A stretch of 34,750 bases of DNA, from the IMG/VR virus record IMGVR_UViG_3300022833_000006; one strand, written 5' to 3'. The translations under genes were made by a program, and so were the position numbers. The notes below the pieces were generated by a model. It saw only the letters and a program-made list of their open reading frames with translations. It searched no databases and was not told the DNA's origin. Shown one piece after another: positions 11,492 through 34,118 of the stretch (the first letter of the stretch is position 1; each line of letters opens with the position of its first letter). The stretch is from an uncultured virus (IMG/VR IMGVR_UViG_3300022833_000006). Taxonomy: Duplodnaviria; Heunggongvirae; Uroviricota; Caudoviricetes; Crassvirales.

Positions 11492-12376
11492 TTATTTATT
11501 TAAAGTTTTATATTTATTTTTAAGCATTACTGGTATATGTTTAATATAAGTTTCTTCTGTTATATCTCCAAATGATGGAGCAGAATTAATTTCTACAATA
11601 ATAAAATCTGGATTTTCATTAATATTACCATTTCTATCTGTAGAACTTTGTATTCTAAGATCAATTGCACCAAAATCTAAACCTGTTGAATTAAGAGCTT
11701 TTACGCATTCATCAATTATAGATTGCCAATTACTAGGCTTATCAAAAGCTTCGTTATTTTCAAGAATCCATACACAATTATCATCATTTCTATACCACTT
11801 ATTTTCTTCAGGAGTATCTCTTTTCATCATTTTACGACAAGTATAAAAACATCCATTTGCATCAACGTGAAGTCTATATTCTCTTGAGTAATTATAATAA
11901 CGTTCAAAAATGCGATTTTCTAAATTGACACCTGAACGTAAATAATTTCTAATTTCATCAATAGTTTTAAGTAAAGTATTACCTTGACCTCTACTACCAT
12001 ATAATGATTTAGCAACTAATGGTAATGGCATATCTTCTAAAGAAACTGTTATTATTTCAGCTTTTGTTTGCAATAAAAAATTATTATTATCATTACTACA
12101 TCTATACCAATCTGCTGATTTAACACTTGGTTGTGCGTTTTGAAAACAATTTTTCATGCGAAGTTTACTACTACTATTACGAATTGCATCAACAGTATTT
12201 AATTCTAATCTATCACCTCCATTTGCAATAGTGTCTTTACATTCAGTACTAGAACCTAATCTTACTACTGAACGAAATGGTAATAATTCAATTGTCTTAT
12301 TATTTCTTCTAAGATTAGTGTGAGAAGGATGCCTACTGTATATTACAGGACGAAATTTTGTATATTTATTTTTCAT
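11492..12376 (-). CDS. ATP-grasp ligase (RimK/YheC-like)
   Basis: PLVAK...GSRGQG, REYRLHV, GLDFGAID, IVEINSAPS. Confidence 0.9.
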   Translation of the reverse strand: MKNKYTKFRPVIYSRHPSHTNLRRNNKTIELLPFRSVVRLGSSTECKDTIANGGDRLELNTVDAIRNSSSKLRMKNCFQNAQPSVKSADWYRCSNDNNNFLLQTKAEIITVSLEDMPLPLVAKSLYGSRGQGNTLLKTIDEIRNYLRSGVNLENRIFERYYNYSREYRLHVDANGCFYTCRKMMKRDTPEENKWYRNDDNCVWILENNEAFDKPSNWQSIIDECVKALNSTGLDFGAIDLRIQSSTDRNGNINENPDFIIVEINSAPSFGDITEETYIKHIPVMLKNKYKTLNK

Positions 12377-17458: not shown

Positions 17459-18589
17459 TTATTCTCTAATTTTGTTAAGCATATTATATACTGATTTTAT
17501 TCCTTTTTCATCATTAGTTAAAGGTAATTCTTTAAAAAAATCAACTGCACCATCAAAATACAAAGGGCAAACAGTGTTACCACCACCATCTCTACATGCT
17601 AAAATTTCTAAAAATCTTATATTGTCTTTGAATTTTTCAATGTTATAGCCGTCTTTTTCAGGATATTTTCTTATACCATGTCTGTAAGGACTAAATAAAC
17701 CTAATGCTAAATCTACATCTCTACTAGTTAACTTATTATCAGCTATATCTACTAAACTAGGTTTTAACCTGTTAGCTTTCATATTATCAAGAGATTCTGA
17801 AGCTGCGGATTGTTGCTGCACAATAACTGGACTATAATTATATCTATTTCTAAGTTGTATAAAATATTTAGAAGAAAGATCTGATATTTCTTGATGTAAA
17901 GTACTACCTTTTTTTGGATATAAAAGAGATATGTGATCAACTATTATAATAACATACTCGTCAGGTCTATCTGCTTTGTAATAATCAAATACTTCATGAT
18001 CTTTAGATTCACCTGTTTTATTATCTTTAAAAGTAACTGTTTTATAATAAGTAGTACCATTAGCCTTAGCGTAATCATCCATATACCTCATTATACCGTA
18101 AGCATGTTTAATGTTGTCTATAAATGTTACAGTTTTATTAAAAAATTCAAAATATTCATTTTGTTTTTCTATTTCTAACAGTATTTCTTCACTAACAGCA
18201 CCACGAGTAGATTGTAATTTAACAGGATCTATTCTTATATTACCTTTTGATGTAGTAAAAAGCCTATTACAAGCAGCCTGTGTCATTTTTTGACGTTCAG
18301 ACATTTCTAATGTAAAATACACTATTTTTAATGTAATAGGACTTTCAGGATTTTGTAACTTTCATTTAATAGGATTATACATATACAAATTATCTGTAAC
18401 TTTTGTTTTACCAACTTTAGTACTAGCTGTAACAAGAGTCATTTTACCTTGTTGTATACCAGGAACCACTTCTTCAAAACGAGGTAGTCCAAAGGGTATA
18501 CAATTTGCTTTTCCAGATATTATATTTTCTCTTCTATTTCATAAATGTTTTTTTAATCTACCATAATTGTCTAATTCTTCTTTTTGCAT
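17459..18589 (-). CDS. dnaB: Replicative DnaB-like helicase; true start 18589, two in-frame TGA=Trp
   Basis: Extension MQKEELDNYGRLKKHL*NRRENIISGKANCIPFGLPRF...TASTKVGKT...NPIK*KLQ supplies Walker A; YFTLEMS, IIVDHISLL, VQQQ follow. TGA at 18541-18539 and 18364-18362. Confidence 0.92.
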
Positions 18590-18619
18590 TTAAATTAATT
18601 GTTAATTAAGTTTTTAAAA

Positions 18620-24430: not shown

Positions 24431-24724
24431 TTACGTATTTATTATTATTTCAATAAAATTTCTACCTTCTTCGTTACTTTTAGTTATTGTAATACCATCT
24501 ATTTTATTTCTTTTAATAAAAGAATTAATAATAAATTTATCATAAACTATTTGAGCATTATTAGCCATATTTAAATAGGTAATAGTAATTGAAAACATAA
24601 CTATTGTACTGTCAGTAAATATTCTAATTGTTTCATAAAATATAAAATCAATATTTTCTGATAATTCATTTAATACTGGTTTAACAATATTAATTTTATT
24701 TAATATTTCTATTTCATTTTTCAT
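24431..24724 (-). CDS. Hypothetical protein (start moved to ATG 24724)
   Basis: Track ORF 24431..24754; internal ATG with A-rich leader avoids the upstream stem-loop. Confidence 0.6.
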   Translation of the reverse strand: MKNEIEILNKINIVKPVLNELSENIDFIFYETIRIFTDSTIVMFSITITYLNMANNAQIVYDKFIINSFIKRNKIDGITITKSNEEGRNFIEIIINT

Positions 24725-24752
24725 GTTTTTAATTTTAATTATTAACAATATC

Positions 24753-24829
24753 AAACTATAACACCTTTCAAGTATGAACTTGATTTAAAGAAGTGGGATA
24801 GATAGATAGAAATCCCGATGTTATAGTTT
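24753..24829 (-). ncRNA. Putative three-way-junction structured element
   Basis: Closing stem AAACTATAACA/TGTTATAGTTT enclosing GGGAT/ATCCC and TCAAG/CTTGA hairpins. Confidence 0.5.
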
Positions 24830-24853
24830 TTATATTGTTATTAAAAATAGAAT

Positions 24854-25051
24854 TTAAATTGTTTCAAACAAAGAAATATCTGAAATAGTTTCTGCTCTCA
24901 TTCTGTTATTTATTCTATTCCATCTTACATTACTAGCTATTACTCTTACTGATTTGCAAGTAGGTCTAGTTCCTATGTAAGTCATTTTAGCTACTTTAGC
25001 TAATCTTTCTCTTCTTTTTTCTGCCATTACAGCTATTGTTGATTGATTCAT
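24854..25051 (-). CDS. Small basic hypothetical protein (start moved to ATG 25051)
   Basis: MNQSTIAVMAEKRRERL...; the longer track start overlaps the tRNA-like RNA. Confidence 0.6.
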   Translation of the reverse strand: MNQSTIAVMAEKRRERLAKVAKMTYIGTRPTCKSVRVIASNVRWNRINNRMRAETISDISLFETI

Positions 25052-25081
25052 GGTTAAATTGTTTAAGTTAATTGTTAAAAA

Positions 25082-25233
25082 ATATTCATACTGGATTTGA
25101 ACCAGTGTCTTCTTGTGATTCACTATTATCTATAATAAATTAAATCTAGCAACTTTAAATAAAAAAGTTCCTTATAGTAATCATTGGTAGCGTTATTTGA
25201 TACAAGTACTCTACCTGACTGAGCTAATGAATA
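25082..25233 (-). tRNA. tRNA-like RNA with an 85-nt insert replacing the anticodon loop; identity undetermined
   Basis: Acceptor TATTCAT/ATGAATA, D arm GCTC-AGTCAGGTA-GAGT, anticodon stem CTTGT/ACAAG, variable loop AAGAC, T arm ACTGG-TTCAAAT-CCAGT, all canonically spaced. Confidence 0.75.
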
Positions 25234-25411
25234 TTTATTTTATTTTTTATTTAGATAAAAGCTCACATAATATATGCAAGCCTTATCAATTGCAATGTAC
25301 TACACTTTTGATACATAACCTTTCCCAAATCTATAAAAGTGTTAAAAACTTTGGATGATGTTATATTTGCCAGATATCCTGCTGGCGCAGCTTTTTAGAC
25401 GGCGAAGTCTG

Positions 25412-25855
25412 TGGAGCTGAGGGGAGTCGAACCCCTGTCCCAACAATTTGATTATTAATAAATTATACAGTTTTTCAATTTATAGTTTTCTTCTACACTA
25501 GTTACTCATACTAAATTAACTTATCATACAGCTTCACTATACTAATGTACTTCGGGTCTATCTGGACATACCAGAATATCAAGCATCCTGTGATAAGTTA
25601 CTACATAATGGTTACTACGATGCTTTTTTCACCATTGGCATTATGCTGCCATTGCTAACTTAACTGTTGCAACTGGTGCAACTAGATCGTCAGATCCGTT
25701 AAGAATGTTGTGAACAACACTCATGTTAGCTACTTCCTGTGCAGTTTCCTGCGTACTCATTGTATTTCCGTTTAGAAATTTCACCTACGATATTTAAAGT
25801 GATCACTCACTACTGTTTATTAATATTTACACTGCGGTCAAAACCAGTCAGCCCC
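25412..25855 (-). ncRNA. ssrA: tmRNA
   Basis: 5' GGGGCTGACTGGTTTTGAC, 3' GGACAGGGGTTCGACTCCCCTCAGCTCCA; acceptor with G3-U70 and discriminator A; internal tag frame ending LAMAA*. Confidence 0.95.
25641..25769 (-). other. tmRNA tag reading frame, 42 aa
   Basis: TAAAC|GGA resume context; GNTMSTQETAQEVANMSVVHNILNGSDDLVAPVATVKLAMAA-TAA. Confidence 0.75.
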
Positions 25856-25862
25856 GTTAATG

Positions 25863-26663
25863 TTAATATTTTGTTAATCTATCTTTTACTAACTCTATTA
25901 AACCTTTACTATTTTTAGATAAATTATTAGAAGCACTTGTGTAAAAATTACTAACATCATTAATAGATAAACATTTTTTATTTAATAATATAAATTCATC
26001 AGCTTTTTCTTTATTTGAAAAATAAATGCAATACTTATTTACAGGTTTTTCTCTGTAAAAATCTTTTTTTCTACTTTCAGCTATTTCTTTATTAGGCACA
26101 AGTAAATCCCATGTATTATAAAATTCATCACCTTCAAAGACATCAACACCATCTTCTGTTGTAAATAAAGGTTTTTTAATATGTTTAATATAATTTATTT
26201 CCATATCTCCACAAGCTATTCTATTTCCTTCAGAAATATGAAAAGTTTTAATAGTAAAAGATACACTATTATTAAAAATTACTTCATCACCAACAGTAAA
26301 CACTTCACCATCATTTAATCTTTTTACTGAATGTATATAATACATTTCTGTTCTTTCTAACATTGTAAAAGTAGATTGAGGTGTAGTGTCTATACCATTT
26401 CTTTGCCACCCACCTTTATTACCTATAATCCATAAATCATCAATTAAAGATTTTTGTTTAAAAGACAATATTTCATAATCTTTTTCAATTATTTCTTCCC
26501 AATATTCAGAATAATTTTCTATAATATTAGTATCAATAATAAAACCTTTTGTAAAATAACAATTTTTAGGACAAAAAAAATGATTATTGTCAGTAATTTT
26601 TTCAATAATAGTATTTATATCAGGGCTACCAGAATATTCTTTAATTAATTTGTATTTTTTCAT
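25863..26663 (-). CDS. Hypothetical phage protein
   Basis: ORF track; MKKYKLIKEY, IHSVKRL.DGEVFTVGD, PLFTTEDGVDVFEGD. Confidence 0.8.
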   Translation of the reverse strand: MKKYKLIKEYSGSPDINTIIEKITDNNHFFCPKNCYFTKGFIIDTNIIENYSEYWEEIIEKDYEILSFKQKSLIDDLWIIGNKGGWQRNGIDTTPQSTFTMLERTEMYYIHSVKRLNDGEVFTVGDEVIFNNSVSFTIKTFHISEGNRIACGDMEINYIKHIKKPLFTTEDGVDVFEGDEFYNTWDLLVPNKEIAESRKKDFYREKPVNKYCIYFSNKEKADEFILLNKKCLSINDVSNFYTSASNNLSKNSKGLIELVKDRLTKY

Positions 26664-26665
26664 AA

Positions 26666-27052
26666 TTATAATATTATACTATTAAATAATTCTACTGTCC
26701 AATATACATCAAAACAAAGATAACTAAGTAAGAAAGCTGCTAAAATAAAAGTGTGATACCATACTCTATCTTCATATGGAGTATGAGAATATTCTCTATA
26801 TTGACCTTTTCTTTCTTTAATACCTATTATTAATCTTTCAAAATTATAAAGCATTAATAAACTTAAACTTACGTTGTATATAAGCTTAGTAAGCGTTACG
26901 TTTGCTAGTAATATATTTTTATCTAATGTATGTCCAGTTAATTGTGCTAAGTTGTTAAAGAGCTCTATTAACAATATACTAATAGGTAATCTAAATGGTA
27001 CTAATAATAAAAATGATATTATTAATATTATTAATTTTTGTTTGTGTTTCAT
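26666..27052 (-). CDS. Hypothetical membrane protein
   Basis: About three hydrophobic segments. Confidence 0.7.
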   Translation of the reverse strand: MKHKQKLIILIISFLLLVPFRLPISILLIELFNNLAQLTGHTLDKNILLANVTLTKLIYNVSLSLLMLYNFERLIIGIKERKGQYREYSHTPYEDRVWYHTFILAAFLLSYLCFDVYWTVELFNSIIL

Positions 27053-27259
27053 TGTATTTTATTTAAATTGATTATATTATTTAAAAATATACTGTTATAT
27101 TATTTAACAGTATACTATATTATTATAAGATATATTAATCTCTATTGCTACACGCAAAAATAATAAATCCTAATATTACTATGAACCAATAAGCTTCCAT
27201 GTTGTTGTGTTTTAATTGTTTATGTTTATATAATATATTATATTATATTTTCATTTATG

Positions 27260-27403
27260 TTACTCTTTTAAAAAAATATAATGTATACTTTTATTATAAG
27301 TAACACTATTAATTATTAAATAGTTATTTTTAATAAGATTTTGTACAACAACATCATCAGCATTTGAGCCAATATATGTCATTGAAATTACTTTTTCATC
27401 CAT
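27260..27403 (-). CDS. Small hypothetical protein (47 aa)
   Basis: MDEKVISMTYIGSNADDVVVQNLIKNNYL...; manual translation. Confidence 0.5.
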   Translation of the reverse strand: MDEKVISMTYIGSNADDVVVQNLIKNNYLIINSVTYNKSIHYIFLKE

Positions 27404-27461
27404 TCTATTATTATTTAGTATAGTTAATTTTTAATTAAATATAAAGTATATGCTTAAAAAC

Positions 27462-27492
27462 TTGCATATGTCATTTATTTCTTGTAACTTTG
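27462..27492 (+). promoter_or_regulatory. Bacteroidota housekeeping-sigma promoter, antisense to flanking genes
   Basis: TTG (27462)-N20-TAACTTTG (27485-27492); same layout as the promoter at 34070. Confidence 0.65.
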
Positions 27493-27577
27493 TGTATTGT
27501 TAAGTTACAATGAATTGACATCCTCTACATTCGTCTTTGTTAATAGGATAATATTTGAAGGGTAACGGGTATTTATA

Positions 27578-27618
27578 AAAGGGTTAGGGAAACTTTGTAG
27601 TCTCCTCTAACCCTTTCT
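27578..27618. terminator. Terminator-like hairpin, possibly bidirectional
   Basis: AAAGGGTTAG...CTAACCCTTT inverted repeat with A run before and T/C run after. Confidence 0.6.
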
Positions 27619-27639
27619 CAGTTTAACCACTAACCAATA

Positions 27640-27873
27640 TTATCTCTTCATATTATAATCTTCTATGTTTGGATACTTAAACGTATACCAATTAAGCTTA
27701 CTAGGTTTCATCATTGTAGAATGTGAATGTACAAAACGTTTAAGACTTCTATTATTAATCCATTTATGTATTATTCTATCTATTTTACAACTTCTTTCAA
27801 GTTGATATATGAAATAACCTGTTATTAATAATATTACAACGAATATTATTGTTATTAATTGAAAATTGTTCAT
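27640..27873 (-). CDS. Small membrane-anchored hypothetical protein
   Basis: N-terminal hydrophobic helix. Confidence 0.65.
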   Translation of the reverse strand: MNNFQLITIIFVVILLITGYFIYQLERSCKIDRIIHKWINNRSLKRFVHSHSTMMKPSKLNWYTFKYPNIEDYNMKR

Positions 27874-27896
27874 ATTTTTGTTTTTTTGTATTAATA

Positions 27897-27947
27897 ATTT
27901 ACACTCTGCATTTACAGGCTTGTGACTGTCTTTGGCTGCATTAAAAT
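27897..27947 (-). ncRNA. Twister self-cleaving ribozyme (type P1)
   Basis: ATTT-TAA-TGCA-GC-CAAAG-ACAG-TCACAAGC-CTGT-AAA-TGCA-GA-GTG-T-AAAT: P1, P2, P4, pseudoknots CAC/GTG and GC/GC, conserved UAA and GA. Confidence 0.88.
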
Positions 27948-28084
27948 CCTTTATATTTAAAACATAAAGGATTTTTATATTTATAATTATTTTATTATAT
28001 CTTATTTAGTCTGGGCTATATCAGACTACGCCTTTTAATTTATCTCCTAACATTTTTTATTGTAATTTAACTCTATAACTTTAC

Positions 28085-28155
28085 AGCCACTAGGATTTGC
28101 ACCTACAATTTTGGGGTAGTAACCCAACGAGTTTTACTTTTTACTACAATAAGTT
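28085..28155 (-). pseudogene. Degenerate tRNA-like remnant
   Basis: TTGGG-TTACTAC-CCCAA hairpin followed by TAGG-TGCAAAT-CCTA T arm; acceptor stem does not pair. Confidence 0.45.
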
Positions 28156-28194
28156 TAAGTTTCTTTACGATAGAAATCATCTCTAAATTAATTA

Positions 28195-28449
28195 TTATAT
28201 TACTGATTTGAAATTTTCATGAAAAGACATTGTGTCTATTTGAACATGTTTGTATTTGTAAATATTAGCCCATTTTGCAAATCTTATAAACTCACTTTTT
28301 ACATAATTAAATATATCATTGTAAGTATAATGTTTATTTGCATTAAAAATAAGATCATAAAATTTATGATAAAATACATCAATATCAATGTTCATTTTAA
28401 TAGTTTCTCTTTCTATTTTTCTACGTGTATTTCTAGTAATTTTTTTCAT
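28195..28449 (-). CDS. Hypothetical protein
   Basis: ORF track. Confidence 0.65.
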   Translation of the reverse strand: MKKITRNTRRKIERETIKMNIDIDVFYHKFYDLIFNANKHYTYNDIFNYVKSEFIRFAKWANIYKYKHVQIDTMSFHENFKSVI

Positions 28450-28628
28450 AATTTGTTTCTTTTGTTTCTTGCAGATTTAGATATATAATTATATTTATCT
28501 GCAAAAGATTCATTTTTCTTATTAAAAGAGTCAATTCTTGTTCTTACATCAAAATTTAAATTTACTATTTCTGGAAAACATCCAAATATACCATTGTATA
28601 TAAAATAAGAAACTATTATTAATTTCAT
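28446..28628 (-). CDS. Hypothetical protein ending in TGA (ATGA overlap)
   Basis: ORF track; starts just after the previous stop and its TGA overlaps the next ATG. Confidence 0.55.
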   Translation of the reverse strand: MKLIIVSYFIYNGIFGCFPEIVNLNFDVRTRIDSFNKKNESFADKYNYISKSARNKRNKL

Positions 28629-28631
28629 AAT

Positions 28632-28859
28632 TTATTCTTTTGCAGATTTACCATTAGTAAAACCTCTGTTGTAACCATCTTGATAATTATCAGATGATTC
28701 AGGTAATACAGGTATAGGAGTAACTGGTACTACTGGCTTTATACAATTTTGCACTTCAAAACAATAACCTGCTACATAACCATCTTCAAATCCTTCTTCA
28801 AACTTCGTTGTAAATATCATTGTTAACAATAATATTGATAATATTAATAATGTTTTCAT
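28632..28859 (-). CDS. Small secreted/membrane protein
   Basis: Signal-like N-terminus; GFEDGYVAGYC and YQDGYNRGF repeats; Pro-rich linker. Confidence 0.7.
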   Translation of the reverse strand: MKTLLILSILLLTMIFTTKFEEGFEDGYVAGYCFEVQNCIKPVVPVTPIPVLPESSDNYQDGYNRGFTNGKSAKE

Positions 28860-28900
28860 TTTTTTGTTTTTAAATTGTTATTTTTATTGTTTTTTTATAA

Positions 28901-29539
28901 TTACAAATTTTCTTTAATCCAATCTTTAAATTGAATTATTTTATAATCTTCATCATATCTATCATTATTAATAGATGTAATTCCTGAATTACGACCTTCT
29001 GACCAACATTTTTGCATCTCTTCTTTAGTATACATTTTTTCTTCAATCAAATGTACTATTACTTCATTGTTAGTTGTTAGTTTTATTAACAACGGTCTTG
29101 TAGTTTTATGTTTGCTATATAGTCCATCTACATATTCATACTCCAATTCAACTTCATCAATACCACCTTGTTTACAATATTCTTCTAAAAATGATTGTGG
29201 TATTTGTGGCAACGAAACTATTATTTTTTGACCTATTATTTTAGTAGATTTTTTACATTTTACTTTAAGCTTAGTATCTGTTGTTGCTACGATTTTTATA
29301 GCACCTTGTCCTTTTTCTAAATTAATATTTTTAAATGGTTTATCAGGATATTTTTCATTTATACACCAATCACCTTTTTTAATATTTTCATTTGATATTA
29401 AATATAAATGTTGAGAAGTTACATCCCACCATTTTTTCATATTTAAATTATTATTAATTAAAAAATCATCATCTTTTAAAAATAAAGCAGGTGTTAAATC
29501 TTCTGTTGATAACATTACCACTTTTATTGTATTTTCCAT
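28901..29539 (-). CDS. Hypothetical phage protein
   Basis: QHLYLIS.E.IK.GDW, KIVATTD..L, LPQIPQSF.EEY. Confidence 0.8.
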   Translation of the reverse strand: MENTIKVVMLSTEDLTPALFLKDDDFLINNNLNMKKWWDVTSQHLYLISNENIKKGDWCINEKYPDKPFKNINLEKGQGAIKIVATTDTKLKVKCKKSTKIIGQKIIVSLPQIPQSFLEEYCKQGGIDEVELEYEYVDGLYSKHKTTRPLLIKLTTNNEVIVHLIEEKMYTKEEMQKCWSEGRNSGITSINNDRYDEDYKIIQFKDWIKENL

Positions 29540-29966
29540 AATTTTTGTTTTAAGTTAATAATGTATTAGCACCATCTGTAATAACTATTGTATCAACACA
29601 ATAATTAAGTCATTATATTAGACATTATTATAAATGGTCACAAAATAATTCAACACTTAGTTGATTTTCAATTATTTTTTGCTGTAAACTCCTAAGTGTA
29701 ATGTAAAGTGATGTGACGCACTAGTGTCTCTTTATACACAACCAACATATTACAATACAGTTGGTACACTTGATAGATTTGTATGTAGCTGGAATCTAAC
29801 CAGTCAAGGGTCTTGCCTTTTAGCATCCTTACAATTTATATTCTATCTTTATTTAGTGATTAAACTTTCTTTTGCCTACCTGTTTTAAAAACTAAAGCTC
29901 ATTACAAGTGCCTATGTATTAGGTATAATCACAACGTCATAGGTTTAACGTTTATTGTTTTAAATT

Positions 29967-30097
29967 ATAAACTCTCACAAGGTTGCACTTTGAGTACTTT
30001 ATAGCATCTCTAAGCCCTGTGTGTAGTCAATCTAACTACTTGCTAAATTTCTAAAGATTTTTTAATTATTGTCCACTGCAATTGGATAAGAGTTTAT
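29967..30097 (-). ncRNA. Unknown structured RNA motif, copy B
   Basis: Closing stem ATAAACTCTTAT/GTGAGAGTTTAT with G-U pairs valid only on the minus strand; shares 22/24 nt with copy A. Confidence 0.6.
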
Positions 30098-30108
30098 TAT
30101 ATTATTAT

Positions 30109-30207
30109 TTAAAGCATTATTATTCTTATAACACAAAATACTGCAGCTGTTACTACCATTATTATTAATCCTATAAAGAAAATTTCCTCTGATTGTTCTT
30201 TTTTCAT
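30109..30207 (-). CDS. Small membrane peptide (32 aa)
   Basis: MKKEQSEEIFFIGLIIMVVTAAVFCVIRIIML with A-rich leader. Confidence 0.5.
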   Translation of the reverse strand: MKKEQSEEIFFIGLIIMVVTAAVFCVIRIIML

Positions 30208-30240
30208 TGTTTTGTTTTTAATGTTAATAATTTTAAAATA

Positions 30241-30331
30241 AATAAACTATCATGTAAGTATATCCTGATTAAACTTACACTACGCGGATTTCAGGAGTAG
30301 TCCTTATTGCAATTGGATGATAGTTTATTAT
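30241..30331 (-). ncRNA. Unknown structured RNA motif, copy A
   Basis: 13-bp closing stem AATAAACTATCAT/ATGATAGTTTATT; inner TCCTGA/TCAGGA pairing. Confidence 0.6.
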
Positions 30332-30478
30332 TTACTGCTTGTTATCCTTCTACATCAGCACAATATCTTTTCTGATTGTGTCACCTATTTTACGGATGAT
30401 TTTATGTAGCTCTAGCTTTCTATTTATTTAAGGGATGTCAGCTTTCCCCACACTAGCCCAGTGGTTTTTATATAAATA

Positions 30479-30599
30479 AATAAAATGCAGTGGACTTGAA
30501 CCACTATTAATAAGTCATTATTAGCTGCCTATGGCATCATACACTAATATATATTCACGGATTGCTTATTAACCTTGCCCATTCTAAAGACATTTTATT
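30479..30599 (-). ncRNA. tRNA-like RNA (D/T-arm mimic with expanded central arm)
   Basis: Closing stem AATAAAATG/CATTTTATT, D-like hairpin with GG loop, TTAATAAG/CTTATTAA arm, T arm AGTGG-TTCAAGT-CCACT. Confidence 0.6.
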
Positions 30600-30649
30600 G
30601 TTTAATAATTGATATTTAATAGAGTTTACAATTATATCGCACTGTAATA

Positions 30650-30838
30650 TTAAATATGTAACGTTGTTTCTTTCCAATAATGAAATGAATAAGAAAACTG
30701 ACGATAATTTTTAATGTATGATATACCTCTATTTCTCATTGTAAAAAAAGAACCTGTTATAGTTAGTATTTGTCCTTTACCTATTGTACCATCTCTGTAT
30801 GTTTTAATACATTCAAAAGTTCTAGTTCTTGTTTTCAT
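30650..30838 (-). CDS. Small hypothetical protein
   Basis: ORF track. Confidence 0.6.
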   Translation of the reverse strand: MKTRTRTFECIKTYRDGTIGKGQILTITGSFFTMRNRGISYIKNYRQFSYSFHYWKETTLHI

Positions 30839-31002
30839 GATAATTTAATTAAATTACAATTAGTACAAGTTATTACACTTTTTGTGTAATCTTTATTTAT
30901 AGATTGAGTATCATTAAAGATATGTAAATTTTTTTTACATCTATCATTTTTCCAATCTCTAAAACTAGTAGATAAGTTTCTTAATGTTAATCTTGGTTTC
31001 AT
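30835..31002 (-). CDS. Small zinc-binding-like protein (55 aa) ending in TGA (ATGA overlap)
   Basis: MKPRLTLRNLSTSFRDWKNDRCKKNLH...ITCTNCNLIKLS*; C-x4-H and CxxC. Confidence 0.6.
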   Translation of the reverse strand: MKPRLTLRNLSTSFRDWKNDRCKKNLHIFNDTQSINKDYTKSVITCTNCNLIKLS

Positions 31003-31181
31003 AATGGTTAAATTTAGTTTGTTAAAAATAAAACCAACAGAGATATATATAATTCTTAAATAATGTTACACTTTATTGTGTAATACTTTTAGTTATTATT
31101 ATATCATTTTCAGATAACTGTTGGTATTTATAAATAAATCATTAAGGTACTACAAACTCTTACCTATTCTTGAGTAGATGA

Positions 31182-31565
31182 TTAATCTAGAGGTAATCTA
31201 ATAATAAATTCTAATTTTCTGTATTTTAACCATGTTGGAAATGGATTACCACTATACCCAGGAGTTGAATATTTTTGCTGTCCAAAGCAAGGATAACGTG
31301 GGAAGTCTTTAATAATTATATCAACATAGCTACCTCTAAATGATAAAGGAGAACCACTGTGTGATCCACTTACTTTAAAAAAAGATTTAGATGTTTTAAT
31401 TTTATAACCAAATTTCTTTTGATTTCCTTTATGAAAACATACAGGTTCAAATTTACCATATTTACTAAGAATAGTTATTCCTGATATTGTTAAACTTGAA
31501 ATATCTGTCAGTATAGGATTTCTTTTTTTATCTTGATATAATCTTATTGTAAATGATGTTTTCAT
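31182..31565 (-). CDS. Hypothetical protein
   Basis: ORF track. Confidence 0.6.
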   Translation of the reverse strand: MKTSFTIRLYQDKKRNPILTDISSLTISGITILSKYGKFEPVCFHKGNQKKFGYKIKTSKSFFKVSGSHSGSPLSFRGSYVDIIIKDFPRYPCFGQQKYSTPGYSGNPFPTWLKYRKLEFIIRLPLD

Positions 31566-31581
31566 AGTTGATAATATTGTG

Positions 31582-32088
31582 TTAATCTAATAAAAGTTTT
31601 ATTTGATCTATTTCTTTTTTAGATAATTCAAGTATTTGCTTTAATACCCATTGTAAATTATTGTAATCAGGTGTTGGTAATTTACCATTAATATCTCTTT
31701 TTAGATTTTTAACGTTGTTTGTAAATCCTTTTGCTGATCCTACAGTTAACACTGGATGAGTATGTTTAAGATGTTTGTAATATCTATTGTATAAAGTATA
31801 AAATGATACGTTAATTTCAAATGATAAATCTTTTAATGATTCTTTAATATTTGTTGGATTGTTTTTAATAGTTTCTAATATTAATTTATCTCTACCAGTA
31901 AGTTTTCTATTTATACTATCACGTTTTGTTAACGATGATAGTTTGTTAGATATACTTAAATCGGTTCTGTTAGTATTAAATCTTTTGTTTATTAACTCAG
32001 CAATTTCTTTTATTTTAAAGTTATCAACTCTTAATGACAATATAGTATTACATTCTAATTTTGTATATCTATGTTTTCTTAATGACAT
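31582..32088 (-). CDS. Putative tandem helix-turn-helix DNA-binding protein
   Basis: YT..E...I....IKEIAELIN...RT..SISNKL Myb/HTH-like pattern followed by a second similar unit. Confidence 0.55.
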   Translation of the reverse strand: MSLRKHRYTKLECNTILSLRVDNFKIKEIAELINKRFNTNRTDLSISNKLSSLTKRDSINRKLTGRDKLILETIKNNPTNIKESLKDLSFEINVSFYTLYNRYYKHLKHTHPVLTVGSAKGFTNNVKNLKRDINGKLPTPDYNNLQWVLKQILELSKKEIDQIKLLLD

Positions 32089-32143
32089 ATTTTGTTATTT
32101 AATTTGTTAATATTACTGTATTAATGCTATGTAATATAAATAA

Positions 32144-32280
32144 AGGGTTGACTTTACTGTTGTGTAAATTGGTTAAAACTAGGTTGTAGTTATAAGCCAA
32201 CAATGTCATGTATGTACATGAACCTCAACCCTGTGCTACCACAGGCGTCAAAGTATTACACTCGAGTAAAGTCTCACCTC
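32144..32280 (-). ncRNA. Putative multi-stem structured RNA
   Basis: Nested GACTTTACT/AGTAAAGTC and GTGTAA/TTACAC stems enclosing CCTGTG/CACAGG and TCATGT/ACATGA hairpins. Confidence 0.55.
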
Positions 32281-32300
32281 CATTAACTCTTATTAAAGAG

Positions 32301-32564
32301 TTATAATATAGTTATATCTTCTTGTTCTGTAAATTTAATGCTAATGATATCAATATCATTCTTACTAACACCTAAGTTCTTTTGATACAAATCTTTGAGT
32401 GCTCTATTAATGAGCTTTATTACTCTATCAGCTTTAGTTAGCTTCTCACTCTCCTTACTAAGAATATAAGAGAACCTGTCCTCAACTCTACTCTCCCAAG
32501 CATCATCCTCATTATAGTTATCATCTGTAACTACGTACTTAATATCAATTGTTATATTTTTCAT
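32301..32564 (-). CDS. Hypothetical protein
   Basis: ORF track. Confidence 0.7.
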   Translation of the reverse strand: MKNITIDIKYVVTDDNYNEDDAWESRVEDRFSYILSKESEKLTKADRVIKLINRALKDLYQKNLGVSKNDIDIISIKFTEQEDITIL

Positions 32565-32720
32565 TGCTTTAGTTTTATATTACTATATTTAAATAGTAAT
32601 GTATTAGTTTAAATAAGCCATGTAATAGATTAAGTAAGGCTGTGTAGTAGAACCAGTCGACCCACGAGAGTGTGAGTGTTGGGATTAGATTTGTTAGTTA
32701 CCTTACCTTTATGGAGTAAG

Positions 32721-32748
32721 AAAAGAACTACCTGTTAAGGCAGCTCTT
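32721..32748 (-). terminator. Rho-independent terminator
   Basis: Minus strand AAGAGCTGCC-TTAACA-GGTAGTTCTT-TT about 20 nt after the stop at 32769. Confidence 0.75.
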
Positions 32749-32768
32749 CATCATACTTCATAATGTTA

Positions 32769-33290
32769 CTATGCTTCTCCGATGCTAGGTGCAGATGCTA
32801 CAGGAGCCTCTTCATCTTGTGCATCATCAAAATCAGCATACAGTGCATCAAATGCATTGTTTTCAGCTGCGGTGATATTGTTATCGCCTCCGTTGCTAGG
32901 TAAATGAGATACATTACCAAGTAAGGTAAATCCACTACCATCCTTTTTGGCAACACGTCTAACCGTAGTTAGATAGTTTTCGCCAGATTCAAACATGGCA
33001 ACTGCCTCTGCTGCTTGATCTTCATTTTCCCACTCATCTGTGGATTTAAGACCTACCATACCTTTGAGGTTACCCTCATGCACTTGTAGCAAGAGTGTTT
33101 TCTCTCCAATAGTAGGAATGTTGCACTTAACGGTTGCAAGGCGATACTTCTTTTCCTTTTCATCAAAGTTGGTATAGGACAATTCCTTATTACCAACATT
33201 TCCAACAAGAAGACCAGCTCCTTGAAATTGGAGAGTTTTAGTTCCCTCATAAGAATGGATAGACGCTTTCATTTCGATAATTTTGCTCAT
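32769..33290 (-). CDS. Hypothetical protein with acidic tail (possibly nucleic-acid binding)
   Basis: ORF track, 173 aa; beta-rich core and D/E/A-rich C-terminus; own terminator. Confidence 0.8.
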   Translation of the reverse strand: MSKIIEMKASIHSYEGTKTLQFQGAGLLVGNVGNKELSYTNFDEKEKKYRLATVKCNIPTIGEKTLLLQVHEGNLKGMVGLKSTDEWENEDQAAEAVAMFESGENYLTTVRRVAKKDGSGFTLLGNVSHLPSNGGDNNITAAENNAFDALYADFDDAQDEEAPVASAPSIGEA

Positions 33291-33432
33291 AACGTTGTAA
33301 TTTAGTGTTGTGAATATCTAGCATTTTCACTAAGTGAGTGTTGTAATGCAGTAGCTAGAATCTGCATTTTTTTAGGATTATCCCTTTTATTAATAAGAAT
33401 GGGATGATTTTTTAGTTCTTTTCAAAAAGATA

Positions 33433-33579
33433 CTACCTTTTGCGTGAGCAAATAGGTAGTAAGATTAGTAATACAAATACAACGATGTACATCAGTGTCA
33501 AGTCAAGAAAATATCCTCCTAGTGCAAAGAATATTATTGTCATCAAGTTTAGTGCGAATGCACTCTTAAGCTTCATCAT
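33433..33579 (-). CDS. Small membrane protein (48 aa)
   Basis: MMKLKSAFALNLMTIIFFALGGYFLDLTLMYIVVFVLLILLPICSRKR; manual translation. Confidence 0.55.
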   Translation of the reverse strand: MMKLKSAFALNLMTIIFFALGGYFLDLTLMYIVVFVLLILLPICSRKR

Positions 33580-33609
33580 GTTGTTTGTTGTTAGTGGTTC
33601 AGAGATGCC

Positions 33610-33867
33610 TTATAGCACCTCTGTTGAATATACTACACCAAGCCACTTGAGTAGCAGTGGTGATGTCACGCTGTAGGTAGTGATCTCATCTATGCTGTCT
33701 GGCGTTAGCCAGTATGCACATGATAGGTCAGTACCCACAACGTAGTTGTTGATAGTTCCAGCAAACGGTTTGTTTGTGGTTATCTCTGACTTGATGATCG
33801 TTAGATCTTCAGTCGTTGGATATAGTACTGCTATTGCTAGCAGTAAGAATACGAGTACAGTTTTCAT
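33610..33867 (-). CDS. Small secreted/membrane hypothetical protein
   Basis: Signal-like MKTVLVFLLLAIAVL. Confidence 0.65.
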   Translation of the reverse strand: MKTVLVFLLLAIAVLYPTTEDLTIIKSEITTNKPFAGTINNYVVGTDLSCAYWLTPDSIDEITTYSVTSPLLLKWLGVVYSTEVL

Positions 33868-34069
33868 ACAGTTACAGTGTTGTAAAGTTAGGCGGGGTAT
33901 AAACCCTTTTGTTAAAAAGGATGGGGTGATATGTTAGTTACTCCTACATCTCTATCCCATAAATAATTTCCTCAATATAAAAAATAAAAAATTTTATTAC
34001 CTCTTTAACTATTAGTGCTATGTATATATAACAAATTATGTTAAAGTTTACAAATACATTCTATTTTAC

Positions 34070-34100
34070 TTGTTTATTAAAAATATTCTTCGTAACTTTG
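34070..34100 (+). promoter_or_regulatory. Bacteroidota housekeeping-sigma promoter
   Basis: TTG (34070)-N20-TAACTTTG (34093-34100), 18 nt before ATG 34119. Confidence 0.8.
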
Positions 34101-34118
34101 TAAAATAAAATAAAGAAA

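What the first reader, a model, noticed from the sequence alone, without database searches (positions are those of the whole stretch)
24753..33420. Accessory region punctuated by a dense array of structured RNAs
Seen: many gaps between the small genes hold a closed stem structure: a three-way junction, two tRNA-like RNAs, tmRNA, a twister ribozyme, a tRNA remnant, a duplicated motif and several multi-stem elements. The replication block has almost no intergenic space. Inference: a long early transcript is cut into units by self-cleavage and host RNase P/Z/III, and/or releases small RNAs acting on translation or as anti-defence decoys. Co-occurrence with partial TGA recoding suggests an RNA toolkit for translational control.
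Basis: partly seen in the sequence, partly recalled or inferred. Interest (0 to 1): 0.78.

Follow-up and report, generated by a model that had tools for sequence, protein, structure and literature searches.

The report
Structured RNA cluster in crAss-like phage
The early region of this AT-rich crAss-like phage really holds several conserved RNA genes and folds between its small genes (a tmRNA, a twister self-cleaving ribozyme, an odd tRNA look-alike, a three-way junction, terminator-like hairpins), fewer than first claimed, and they most likely cut and stabilise early transcripts.

Summary
Partly confirmed. The window is an AT-rich phage related to Cellulophaga phage phi14:2 (Crassvirales). 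In 24725-34118, 39% of bases are intergenic, against 2.4% in the replication block once TGA is read as Trp.

Well supported on the minus strand:
- tmRNA 25409-25855 (Rfam 58.1 bits, above the cut-off).
- P3-less twister ribozyme 27898-27947. It is below Rfam's cut-off, but the core, both pseudoknots and the UA cleavage site are intact. The same core occurs in 9 other viral contigs with covarying P1.
- A 12-15 bp hairpin that ends exactly at the predicted cleavage site.
- A 152-nt tRNA-like RNA 25082-25233 with a 78-nt insert and no conserved anticodon. It belongs to a family with extended anticodon arms.
- A three-way junction 24754-24830 (3 compensatory pairs, none broken).
- Terminator-like hairpins and two strongly folded multi-stem elements.

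Not supported: the second tRNA-like RNA, the "tRNA remnant" as an RNA gene, the 100%-conserved block 29675-29780, and three other gaps.

A mosaic relative keeps these blocks while the ORFs between them differ. No RNA data exist for this phage. In phi14:2 the tmRNA-bearing gap gives an abundant stable RNA. No link to TGA recoding was found: no suppressor tRNA in about 73 kb.

The parts
24754..24830 (-). Three-way junction: a 12-bp closing stem, hairpin GGGAU/AUCCC with a CUAU-repeat loop, and hairpin CAAGU/ACUUG. It ends about 25 nt before the ATG at 24724.
   Evidence: 22 pairs, 3 with both sides changed, 0 broken against G002; z -8.7; a covariance model finds it only in the window and the G002-type phage, in 1.40 Mb searched.
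25082..25233 (-). tRNA-like RNA of 152 nt. It has acceptor, D and T arms. The anticodon arm carries a 78-nt insert that includes the hairpin AACUUU/AAAGUU. There is no conserved anticodon, the discriminator is U, and no CCA is encoded.
   Evidence: Family counts are (21 sequences, 100% of 336 cells paired, 6 pairs changed on both sides, 0 of 500 shuffles reach it). There is no Rfam tRNA hit here at E up to 10.
25234..25408 (-). Spacer between the tmRNA and the tRNA-like RNA. It is more conserved than the neighbouring ORFs and holds the small hairpin GCCAG/CUGGC.
   Evidence: alignment with G002; 88% mean column identity over the whole 406 columns. Fold z -1.38, so structure is not shown.
25409..25855 (-). 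tmRNA. The acceptor stem has G3-U70, the discriminator is A, and it is followed by CAG rather than CCA. The tag ends in ...KLAMAA plus a stop.
   Evidence: Homologues: phi14:2 (46.0 bits, 1 bit under the cut-off) and G002 (53.8 bits).
27577..27617 (-). Terminator-like hairpin AAAGGGUUAG...CUAACCCUUU followed by UUAUAAAU. It lies after the stop of the 77-aa ORF.
   Evidence: -28.1 kcal/mol, z -4.61, 0 of 200 shuffles. GGGUUAG/CUAACCC becomes GGGCUAG/CUAGCCC in G002, read from the alignment.
27943..27975 (-). Perfect 15-bp hairpin whose last U is the nucleotide 5' of the predicted twister cut. Its 3' strand overlaps the 5' strand of P1.
   Evidence: z -4.82, 0 of 200; 0 nt from hairpin end to cut. 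The stem sequence differs in G002 but still pairs.
27898..27947 (-). Type-P1 twister ribozyme without P3 (a 5-nt linker instead). The cut is predicted between 27943 and 27942. The 77-aa ORF starts at 27873.
29967..30097 (-). Closed multi-stem element, copy 1 of the duplicated opening motif AUAAACU..AUCCAAUUGCA.
   Evidence: family D9; z -2.47, 3 of 200 shuffles fold as well. No homologue found in G002.
30236..30333 (-). Closed multi-stem element, copy 2 of the duplicated motif, with a 13-bp closing stem.
   Evidence: z -2.26, 3 of 200. Not present in G002.
29675..29780 (-). Sequence block identical in G002 and flanked by divergent DNA. It overlaps a 44-aa ORF. It is not a stable fold.
   Evidence: about 95-100% identity; z +1.01; contigs of related strains diverge just upstream, at 29774-29824.
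32146..32278 (-). Closed four-branch element. Its 3' half is shared with G002.
   Evidence: -49.2 kcal/mol, z -4.85, 0 of 200; 16 shared pairs, 2 changed on both sides, 0 broken.
32632..32763 (-). Terminator-like hairpin after the 173-aa ORF, plus a second closed stem.
   Evidence: z -4.52, 0 of 200. No G002 comparison was possible.
33340..33365 (-). Approximate position of hairpin AUGCAG/CUGCAU with loop ..UUCUAGC... G002 has a different stem (CAUUG/CAAUG) around the same loop.
   Evidence: alignment, read by eye; the whole gap 33295-33430 has z -2.07.
30488..30506 (-). T-arm-like hairpin AGUGG-UUCAAGU-CCACU followed by a U run. It is a likely terminator or a decayed tRNA end, not a supported RNA gene.
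   Evidence: terminator scan; z 0.01. Not conserved in G002.

Best explanation
The region is the early or accessory arm of a crAss-like phage. Mobile small-ORF cassettes alternate with conserved RNA modules, all on the transcribed minus strand.

Shown:
- A tmRNA.
- A complete twister core.
- A tRNA-shaped RNA that cannot decode.
- A three-way junction and several hairpins. Their pairings are kept by compensatory changes in the only diverged relative.

Inferred mechanism:
- Long leftward transcripts start near 34100.
- The twister cuts between 27943 and 27942. The upstream RNA then ends in a blunt 15-bp hairpin with a cyclic phosphate. The mRNA of the 77-aa ORF then starts with a 5'-OH and a folded ribozyme.
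- Host RNase P and RNase Z cut at the tRNA-like RNA and at the CCA-less tmRNA. This releases both as stable RNAs.
- The other hairpins end or protect transcript units.

The tmRNA then works with host SmpB in ribosome rescue. The tRNA-like RNA uses its tRNA shell for processing and stability, and shows a conserved apical loop to an unknown partner.
For: tmRNA:
-.
- Conserved in phi14:2 and in G002.

Twister:
- E 4.6e-7 in the window and 6.8e-8 in G002.
- Pseudoknot T1 reads CAC/GUG where the Rfam consensus has CCC/GGG, which is a compensated pair (read).
- In 10 sequences, 89.9% of cells pair, all 6 P1 pairs change on both sides, and the covariation score is 0.243 against 0.101 in shuffles (0 of 500 reach it).
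- Layout: a hairpin 0-8 nt from the cut in 10 of 10, and an ORF 13-28 nt downstream in 8 of 10.

tRNA-like RNA.

Three-way junction.

Mosaic relative: one search shows blocks at 75-100% identity in a different order, with different ORFs between them.

Intergenic share: 39% against 2.4%.

phi14:2: two long gaps are transcribed above most genes, early and lastingly. One of them holds the tmRNA.

Literature: a review says that processing of polycistronic transcripts has been suggested for bacterial twisters and hammerheads, but not settled.
Against: - No RNA ends were seen, and no RNA run holds this phage.
- The window's P1 is weak (2-4 A-U pairs). Its 5' strand is locked in the upstream hairpin.
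- The twister is below Rfam's cut-off.
- Pairs fixed by my search patterns (P2, T1, T2, the T arm) prove nothing. Only P1, one P4 pair, and the acceptor and D stems vary independently.
- Window-specific elements rest on two lineages only. The metagenome scan added no third: of 23 loci, only 2 were relatives, and both are G002-type.
- The fold-energy excess is modest.
- The twister was not found in 5 related records, though that search's control rang nowhere. It is therefore not a fixed part of the group.
- Several gaps show no structure.
Confidence: 0.6

Rival explanations
1. This is ordinary early-gene architecture. Each small gene or RNA gene has its own promoter and intrinsic terminator. 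The tmRNA and the tRNA-like RNA are stand-alone genes. The hairpins are plain terminators. The twister is a passenger with little effect. There is no processing cascade.
For: - Hairpins at 27577-27617, 27943-27975 and 32709-32763 are followed by U-rich tails.
- Terminator-like sites number 8, against 2.1 +/- 1.4 in shuffles.
- The roughly 90-nt tRNA-like relatives are preceded by a conserved TATAAT-like stretch (read by eye).
- The twister is absent from 5 related records.
Against: - 5 of the 8 terminator-like sites lie on the non-transcribed plus strand.
- Sigma-70-like promoter matches equal chance, 78 against 77.
- The preprint found no common motif upstream of phi14:2 early transcripts.
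- The twister core is 100% conserved between window and G002 while its flanks diverge.
- The twister holds a fixed place between hairpin and start codon in 8 of 10 cases.
Confidence: 0.25
2. The conserved intergenic blocks act mainly as DNA. They would be promoters for the virion RNA polymerase, or shared sequences at which gene cassettes recombine. Their RNA folds would be incidental.
For: - The same blocks flank different ORF sets in G002, and two of them are adjacent there.
- Block 29675-29780 is identical yet unfolded.
- Motifs around 29829-29863 and 29926-29953 are 100% identical and sit at strain-level joints.
- A similar motif ACAUAGCA(U/C)UAAUA stands before 32088 and near 34010 (read by eye).
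Against: Compensatory changes with no broken pairs in the three-way junction, the acceptor stem, hairpin stems and P1 need selection on RNA pairing. G-U pairs fit the minus strand only.
Confidence: 0.1
3. The tRNA-like RNA and other stable RNAs are decoys or sponges against host defences or host translation factors. Examples would be anticodon nucleases or tmRNA/SmpB titration.
For: - The tRNA shell is kept while the anticodon is lost.
- The apical loop UGAUU..UUAAAGGUAG is conserved in 17 distinct relatives.
- A paper notes that a TLD-only phage tmRNA may titrate SmpB (passages).
Against: No target, no defence gene context and no binding data. The apical loop is split in the window and poorly kept in G002.
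Confidence: 0.08

Closest known systems
phi14:2 'long non-coding RNAs' at the g004-g005 and g005-g006 junctions (Drobysheva et al., bioRxiv 10.1101/2020.03.07.982082; passages read)
   Same: Same phage group and the same early arm. The long gaps are transcribed early and stay abundant. The g005-g006 gap holds a tmRNA homologous to the window's.
   Different: The preprint leaves their function open and does not name a tmRNA there. phi14:2 showed no twister, no tRNA, and no sequence match to the window's other gaps.
Phage-encoded tmRNAs (mycobacteriophage Bxz1 group and Bacillus phage G, PMC4131195, passages; Cellulophaga phage Calle, PMC8776804, passages)
   Same: A tRNA-like domain with G3-U70, and a tag ending in hydrophobic residues plus AA and a stop.
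   Different: No CCA is encoded. The open frame in register with the tag is long, about 42 codons from the Rfam-aligned resume site. It shares a motif ANM.VVHNILNGS with phi14:2 and related motifs with many other phage tmRNAs.
Twister ribozyme, type P1 (Rfam RF03160)
   Same: UA cleavage site, P2, P4, both pseudoknots and the conserved AAGCC loop.
   Different: P3 is replaced by 5 nt, and P1 is weak and competes with an upstream hairpin. The score is 43.6 against a cut-off of 67.2. That P3 is optional in natural twisters is recalled, not checked here.
Theta (HDV-like) ribozymes next to tRNAs in recoded gut phages (PMC10879173; search listing and abstract only)
   Same: A small self-cleaving ribozyme in a phage that reassigns a stop codon.
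   Different: A different ribozyme class. Here the ribozyme lies before a protein ORF, not beside a tRNA, and no suppressor tRNA was found.
tRNA punctuation of mitochondrial transcripts; the T4 tRNA-cluster stable RNAs C and D; artificial tRNA scaffolds for RNA expression (all recalled; PMC3753655 seen only in a search listing)
   Same: A tRNA shape used as a processing and stability signal rather than for decoding.
   Different: Only one such element stands in this window, so 'punctuation' by tRNA shapes is not general here.
PeSL promoter/stem-loop cassettes that flank shuffled small ORFs in T4-type phages (recalled; no paper read)
   Same: Conserved intergenic stem-loop blocks bound variable small-ORF cassettes.
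   Different: Here the blocks include a ribozyme and RNA genes, and no shared repeat family spans all gaps.

Membership tests
tmRNA (RF00023) | Score at or above Rfam's gathering score, full-length match | tested here: met
   58.1 bits against 47, model positions 1-374.
tmRNA (RF00023) | tRNA-like domain: 7-bp acceptor stem with G3-U70, T arm, discriminator A | tested here: met
   GGGGCUG pairs with CAGCUCC. The T arm GGGGUUCGACUCCCC is aligned with high posterior.
tmRNA (RF00023) | Internal tag reading frame ending in a stop | tested here: met
   ARAGORN tag ATVKLAMAA*. The resume codon is uncertain.
tmRNA (RF00023) | Pseudoknot-rich body | tested here: inconclusive
   The middle of the alignment has low posterior and many non-standard pairs.
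tmRNA (RF00023) | Works with SmpB in trans-translation | not tested
   No search for smpB was run, and there are no functional data.
Twister ribozyme type P1 (RF03160) | Score at or above Rfam's gathering score | tested here: not met
   43.6 bits against 67.2. G002 scores 49.1. The loss is the deleted P3.
Twister ribozyme type P1 (RF03160) | Conserved core: UA at the cleavage site, P2, P4, loop GUC.CAAGCC | tested here: met
   alignment. P2 and 2 of 3 P4 pairs are invariant, and the third P4 pair has 3 pair types.
Twister ribozyme type P1 (RF03160) | Pseudoknots T1 and T2 | tested here: met
   T2 is GC/GC. T1 is CAC/GUG, a compensated version of the consensus CCC/GGG. Which columns form T1 and T2 is recalled from published structures.
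Twister ribozyme type P1 (RF03160) | P1 closing stem | tested here: inconclusive
   Weak in the window and G002. It covaries in the other 8 sequences (71.7% of cells paired over all 10).
Twister ribozyme type P1 (RF03160) | Self-cleavage | not testable with these tools
   Needs an in vitro transcript.
tRNA (RF00005) | Acceptor, D and T arms | tested here: met
tRNA (RF00005) | 5-bp anticodon stem with a 7-nt loop and a conserved anticodon | tested here: not met
   The window has a 78-nt insert. The candidate loops differ: AUCAAAU in the window and AAAAGAU in G002. ARAGORN's anticodon calls differ among near-identical relatives.
tRNA (RF00005) | Match to the Rfam model | tested here: not met
   No hit at E up to 10 in the window. 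A 90-nt relative in G009 scores 60.4 bits.
Group I intron in a tRNA gene | Intron long enough for a group I core (about 200 nt or more; recalled) | tested here: not met
   The insert is 78 nt. There is no Rfam intron hit.
Intrinsic terminator | G+C-rich hairpin directly followed by a U run | tested here: inconclusive
   27577-27617 and 27943-27975 end in UUUU plus A/U. Neither was picked by the consensus scan, which needs 3 G-C pairs and 5 T in 8.

The most novel reading that the evidence does not exclude
Two things here may be undescribed kinds of phage RNA module.

(1) A family of non-decoding, tRNA-shelled RNAs.
- The anticodon arm is a covarying rod capped by a conserved loop (UGAUU..UUAAAGGUAG).
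- The family occurs in many phage contigs of about 100 kb. It is often near a phage tmRNA.
- Other phage tmRNAs are likewise followed 150-320 nt downstream by aberrant tRNA shapes.
- This suggests a natural 'tRNA scaffold' that delivers a small RNA acting on host translation, ribosome rescue or defence.

(2) A mobile 'hairpin - minimal twister - start codon' cassette. It would separate phage transcript units and create 5'-OH, ribozyme-capped mRNAs.
Probability: 0.35. Interest if true: 0.75.

Novelty: new variant of a known kind. Interest (0 to 1): 0.6.

Why it matters
- It gives a concrete reading of the unexplained abundant early RNAs of the crAss-like model phage phi14:2. At least one of the two gaps holds a tmRNA.
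- The biological role of bacterial and phage twisters is still open. A fixed place between a hairpin and a start codon gives a directly testable model of transcript cutting.
- The tRNA-like family shows that tRNA scans of phage genomes can report 'tRNAs' that cannot decode. This matters for counts of phage tRNAs and for claims about codon use and recoding.
- It also shows that early genes here avoid TGA while replication genes read it as Trp.

Tried and rejected
- RNA evidence: no RNA holder was listed for the stretch. Laying two DNA runs gave only contigs and strain-level joints.
- Relatives by protein:
  - The 212-aa protein gave none.
  - The 266-aa protein gave 3 loci. One is the same phage, and the other two carry no tmRNA.
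  - The DNA polymerase gave one relative contig that stops before the region.
- Metagenome scan with the tmRNA 3' end: of 23 loci, 21 matched only the roughly 30-nt tmRNA end, and 2 were the G002-type phage.
- Covariance model of the three-way junction: no further member in 1.40 Mb.
- Twister family search in 5 related records: 0 hits, but the control rang nowhere, so this is weak.
- Earlier notes of this scan: none.
- The idea that the tRNA-like RNA is the TGA suppressor or an intron-bearing tRNA-Phe/Leu/Trp was rejected. U33 and the anticodon are not conserved, and the 'anticodon' lies in a covarying helix.
- The idea that gaps at 2295-2739 and 18323-18619 hold RNAs was rejected. They are coding once TGA is read as Trp.
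- Block 29675-29780 as a structured RNA was rejected.
- The other abundant gap of phi14:2 showed no tRNA shape, no Rfam match and only one window at z<-3.

Full report
**What the window is.** Genes run on the minus strand. The DNA is very AT-rich: about 16-25% G+C in most ORFs, with bumps to 30-45% in several gaps and in 32600-33900. The only named relative by DNA is Cellulophaga phage phi14:2 (Crassvirales, Steigviridae), at 70% identity over 7% of the query. The left block encodes thymidylate synthase, ribonucleotide reductase, amidoligase/GATase proteins and a DNA polymerase. The DNA is held by runs labelled salt lake metagenome. These may be its own source.

**Coding density.**
- With a hand-made gene model, 3678 of 9394 bases in 24725-34118 lie in gaps of 40 nt or more.
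- In 3-23583 only 556 of 23581 bases are uncovered, but only if TGA is read through.
- Reading TGA as Trp is justified:
  - The ribonucleotide reductase R2 match grows from profile positions 41-277 (155.1 bits) to 1-277 (192.3 bits).
  - A DnaB domain and a polymerase exonuclease stretch appear.
  - The apparent gaps at 18323-18619 and 2295-2739 become coding.
- The replication block has 13 in-frame TGA among 7610 codons, and none of its 29 stops is TGA.
- The 23 accessory ORFs have 0 in-frame TGA among 2247 codons, and two of them end in TGA inside ATGA overlaps.
- So 'partial TGA recoding' is real, and the early ORFs avoid it.

**tmRNA.**
- ARAGORN and Rfam agree on 25409-25855, at 58.1 bits against a cut-off of 47.
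- The acceptor stem has G3-U70. The discriminator A is followed by CAG, so CCA must be added after trimming.
- phi14:2 has a homologue in an unannotated stretch. G002 has one too.
- The preprint on phi14:2 reports that the g004-g005 and g005-g006 gaps are transcribed above most genes. They appear early and do not decline, and are called long non-coding RNAs of unknown function (passages).
- The g005-g006 gap is where the tmRNA lies.
- Phage tmRNAs as such are known.

**The one useful relative.** A 24.8-kb viral contig (G002; full-length twin L299, 99.9 kb) shares the region as a mosaic.
- Shared blocks:

| Block | Identity |
|---|---|
| tmRNA to the 65-aa ORF | 86% |
| Three-way junction | 85% |
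| Twister | 79% |
| Block 29673-29787 | 95% |
| Two short motifs | 100% |
| Parts of 30330-30429 | 75-80% |
| Parts of 32087-32221 | 75-80% |
| Parts of 33258-33481 | 75-80% |

- The ORFs between the blocks are mostly different. Two blocks that are 1.7 kb apart in the window are adjacent in G002.
- No third lineage was found.

**Twister.**
- The match is E 4.6e-7 but below the cut-off, because the P3 hairpin is replaced by CAAAG. G002 has UAUUA there.
- P2, P4, the UA site and the loop are intact. T1 reads CAC/GUG where the consensus reads CCC/GGG.
- A pattern scan found the same core in 9 viral contigs.
- In the 10-sequence alignment, all six P1 pairs change on both sides and the outer P4 pair has three types. 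Overall 89.9% of cells pair, and 0 of 500 shuffles reach the covariation score.
- P2, T1 and T2 were fixed by the pattern and carry no weight.
- Context is the new point:
  - The 55 nt upstream fold into a hairpin ending 0-8 nt from the cut in 10 of 10. The fold reaches z below -3 in 4 of them.
  - An ORF of 30 or more codons begins 13-28 nt after the ribozyme in 8 of 10.
- In the window the hairpin (z -4.82) ends at the very nucleotide before the cut. It uses the P1 5' strand, so P1 is weak or absent.
- The stem sequence differs in G002 but still pairs.
- Five related records gave no twister, though the control was silent.

**tRNA-like RNA.**
- With introns allowed, ARAGORN reports a 'tRNA-Leu(CAA)' with a 78-nt intron at 25081-25234.
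- Against G002, three acceptor pairs and one anticodon-stem pair are compensated. The D and T arms are kept. The would-be anticodon loop differs: AUCAAAU against AAAAGAU.
- A scan with its T arm hit at least 117 contigs. By ARAGORN most of these are ordinary tRNAs, most often Val(UAC).
- 17 distinct elements of about 90 nt and 2 of 112 nt, mostly from contigs of about 99 kb, have a different shape:
  - the anticodon stem is extended to about 9 bp, with covariation
  - it is capped by the conserved loop UGAUU..UUAAAGGUAG
  - ARAGORN's anticodon calls differ among near-identical copies
- The window aligns to the two halves of that loop (AAUGAUUA ... UAUAGAUAA), with an extra hairpin between them.
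- Over 21 sequences the acceptor, D and T stems pair in 336 of 336 cells, with 6 pairs changed on both sides (0 of 500 shuffles).
- Two caveats apply. I located the 5' acceptor strand by complementarity, anchored by the adjacent D arm. The T arm was fixed by the pattern.
- One 90-nt member scores 60.4 bits as 'tRNA' in Rfam. The window's copy gives no hit.
- A tmRNA above Rfam's cut-off lies 1.4-2.4 kb from the element in 2 of 5 records tested.
- Separately, 10 of 38 phage tmRNA loci have a T-loop motif within 450 nt downstream. Two of the 10 are this phage itself. Those I read are aberrant tRNA shapes.

**Other elements.**
- Three-way junction: 22 pairs, 3 compensated, 0 broken. It is lineage-specific.
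- Hairpin 27577-27617: z -4.61, with one compensated pair.
- Element 32146-32278: z -4.85. Its shared half has 2 compensated pairs.
- Element 32632-32763: z -4.52.
- The hairpin near 33350 keeps its loop but changes its stem in G002.
- The duplicated motif opens two closed stems of modest z.

**Negative results.** These are the second tRNA-like RNA, the tRNA remnant, the gaps 31035-31180, 30335-30480 and 33868-33990, the spacer 25260-25408, and the identical block 29675-29780. By fold energy, the intergenic windows are enriched only in the tail.

**Reading.**
- The processing model fits the anatomy and the phi14:2 expression data, but rests on no mapped RNA end.
- The proposed tie to recoding fails for lack of any decoding tRNA. 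None was found in the window or in 66.7 kb of the nearest record, and no Rfam family reached E 0.01 in a further 46.7 kb.
- About 27 kb of the genome was not seen.
- Supplements of the phi14:2 preprint (transcript tables) could not be read, and they may already define these RNA ends.

Noticed in passing
window 25635-25770 (-), L001 about 11560-11720, loci L015-L090: The frame in register with the tmRNA tag stays open for about 42 codons from the Rfam-aligned resume site (GNTMSTQETAQEVANMSVVHNILNGSDDLVAPVATVKLAMAA). phi14:2 shares ANM(S/T)VVHNILNGS with mostly synonymous differences. Many other phage tmRNAs carry 18-31-residue tags with ANM.KVFSL(L/I)-like motifs. This suggests a conserved long tag peptide.
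   Followed up: partly
window 3-23583 (-): TGA is read as Trp in 8 replication or nucleotide-metabolism genes (13 codons, mostly near N-termini). The 23 early ORFs have none, and two of them stop at TGA. No suppressor tRNA was found in the roughly 73 kb seen.
   Followed up: partly
L030 10035-10141 (-): Directly upstream of another phage tmRNA lies a strong sub-threshold match to Rfam Atu_At1 (57.2 bits against a cut-off of 60, E 7.7e-7). This is a multi-stem RNA of unknown role.
   Followed up: no
window 32600-33900: A block of 38-45% G+C inside a genome of about 22% G+C. It holds a 173-aa ORF with an acidic tail and an 85-aa ORF with a signal-peptide-like start. It looks like recently acquired DNA. 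G002 has homologues of both ORFs.
   Followed up: no
window 27134-27199 and 30109-30207 (-): Two mini-ORFs (21 and 32 codons) encoding single hydrophobic helices sit inside 'intergenic' gaps.
   Followed up: no
L001 12246-12931 (phi14:2): The second abundant non-coding region of phi14:2 has a G+C bump (0.33-0.39) but no tRNA shape, no Rfam match and little fold-energy signal. It is still unexplained.
   Followed up: partly
G009:C1:76979-77050 and 81349-84853: A 101.8-kb phage contig carries a tmRNA with an ordinary tRNA abutting it, the 90-nt tRNA-like RNA 1.4 kb away, and a cluster of more than 20 tRNAs on the opposite strand.
   Followed up: no
window 29829-29863 and 29926-29953 (-); L149 7019-7133, 7455-7475: Two short motifs (AAGAUAGAAUAUAAAUUGUAA, and a hairpin AACGU..ACGUU) are 100% identical in G002. 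One is repeated there, and they sit at strain-level replacement joints in related contigs.
   Followed up: partly
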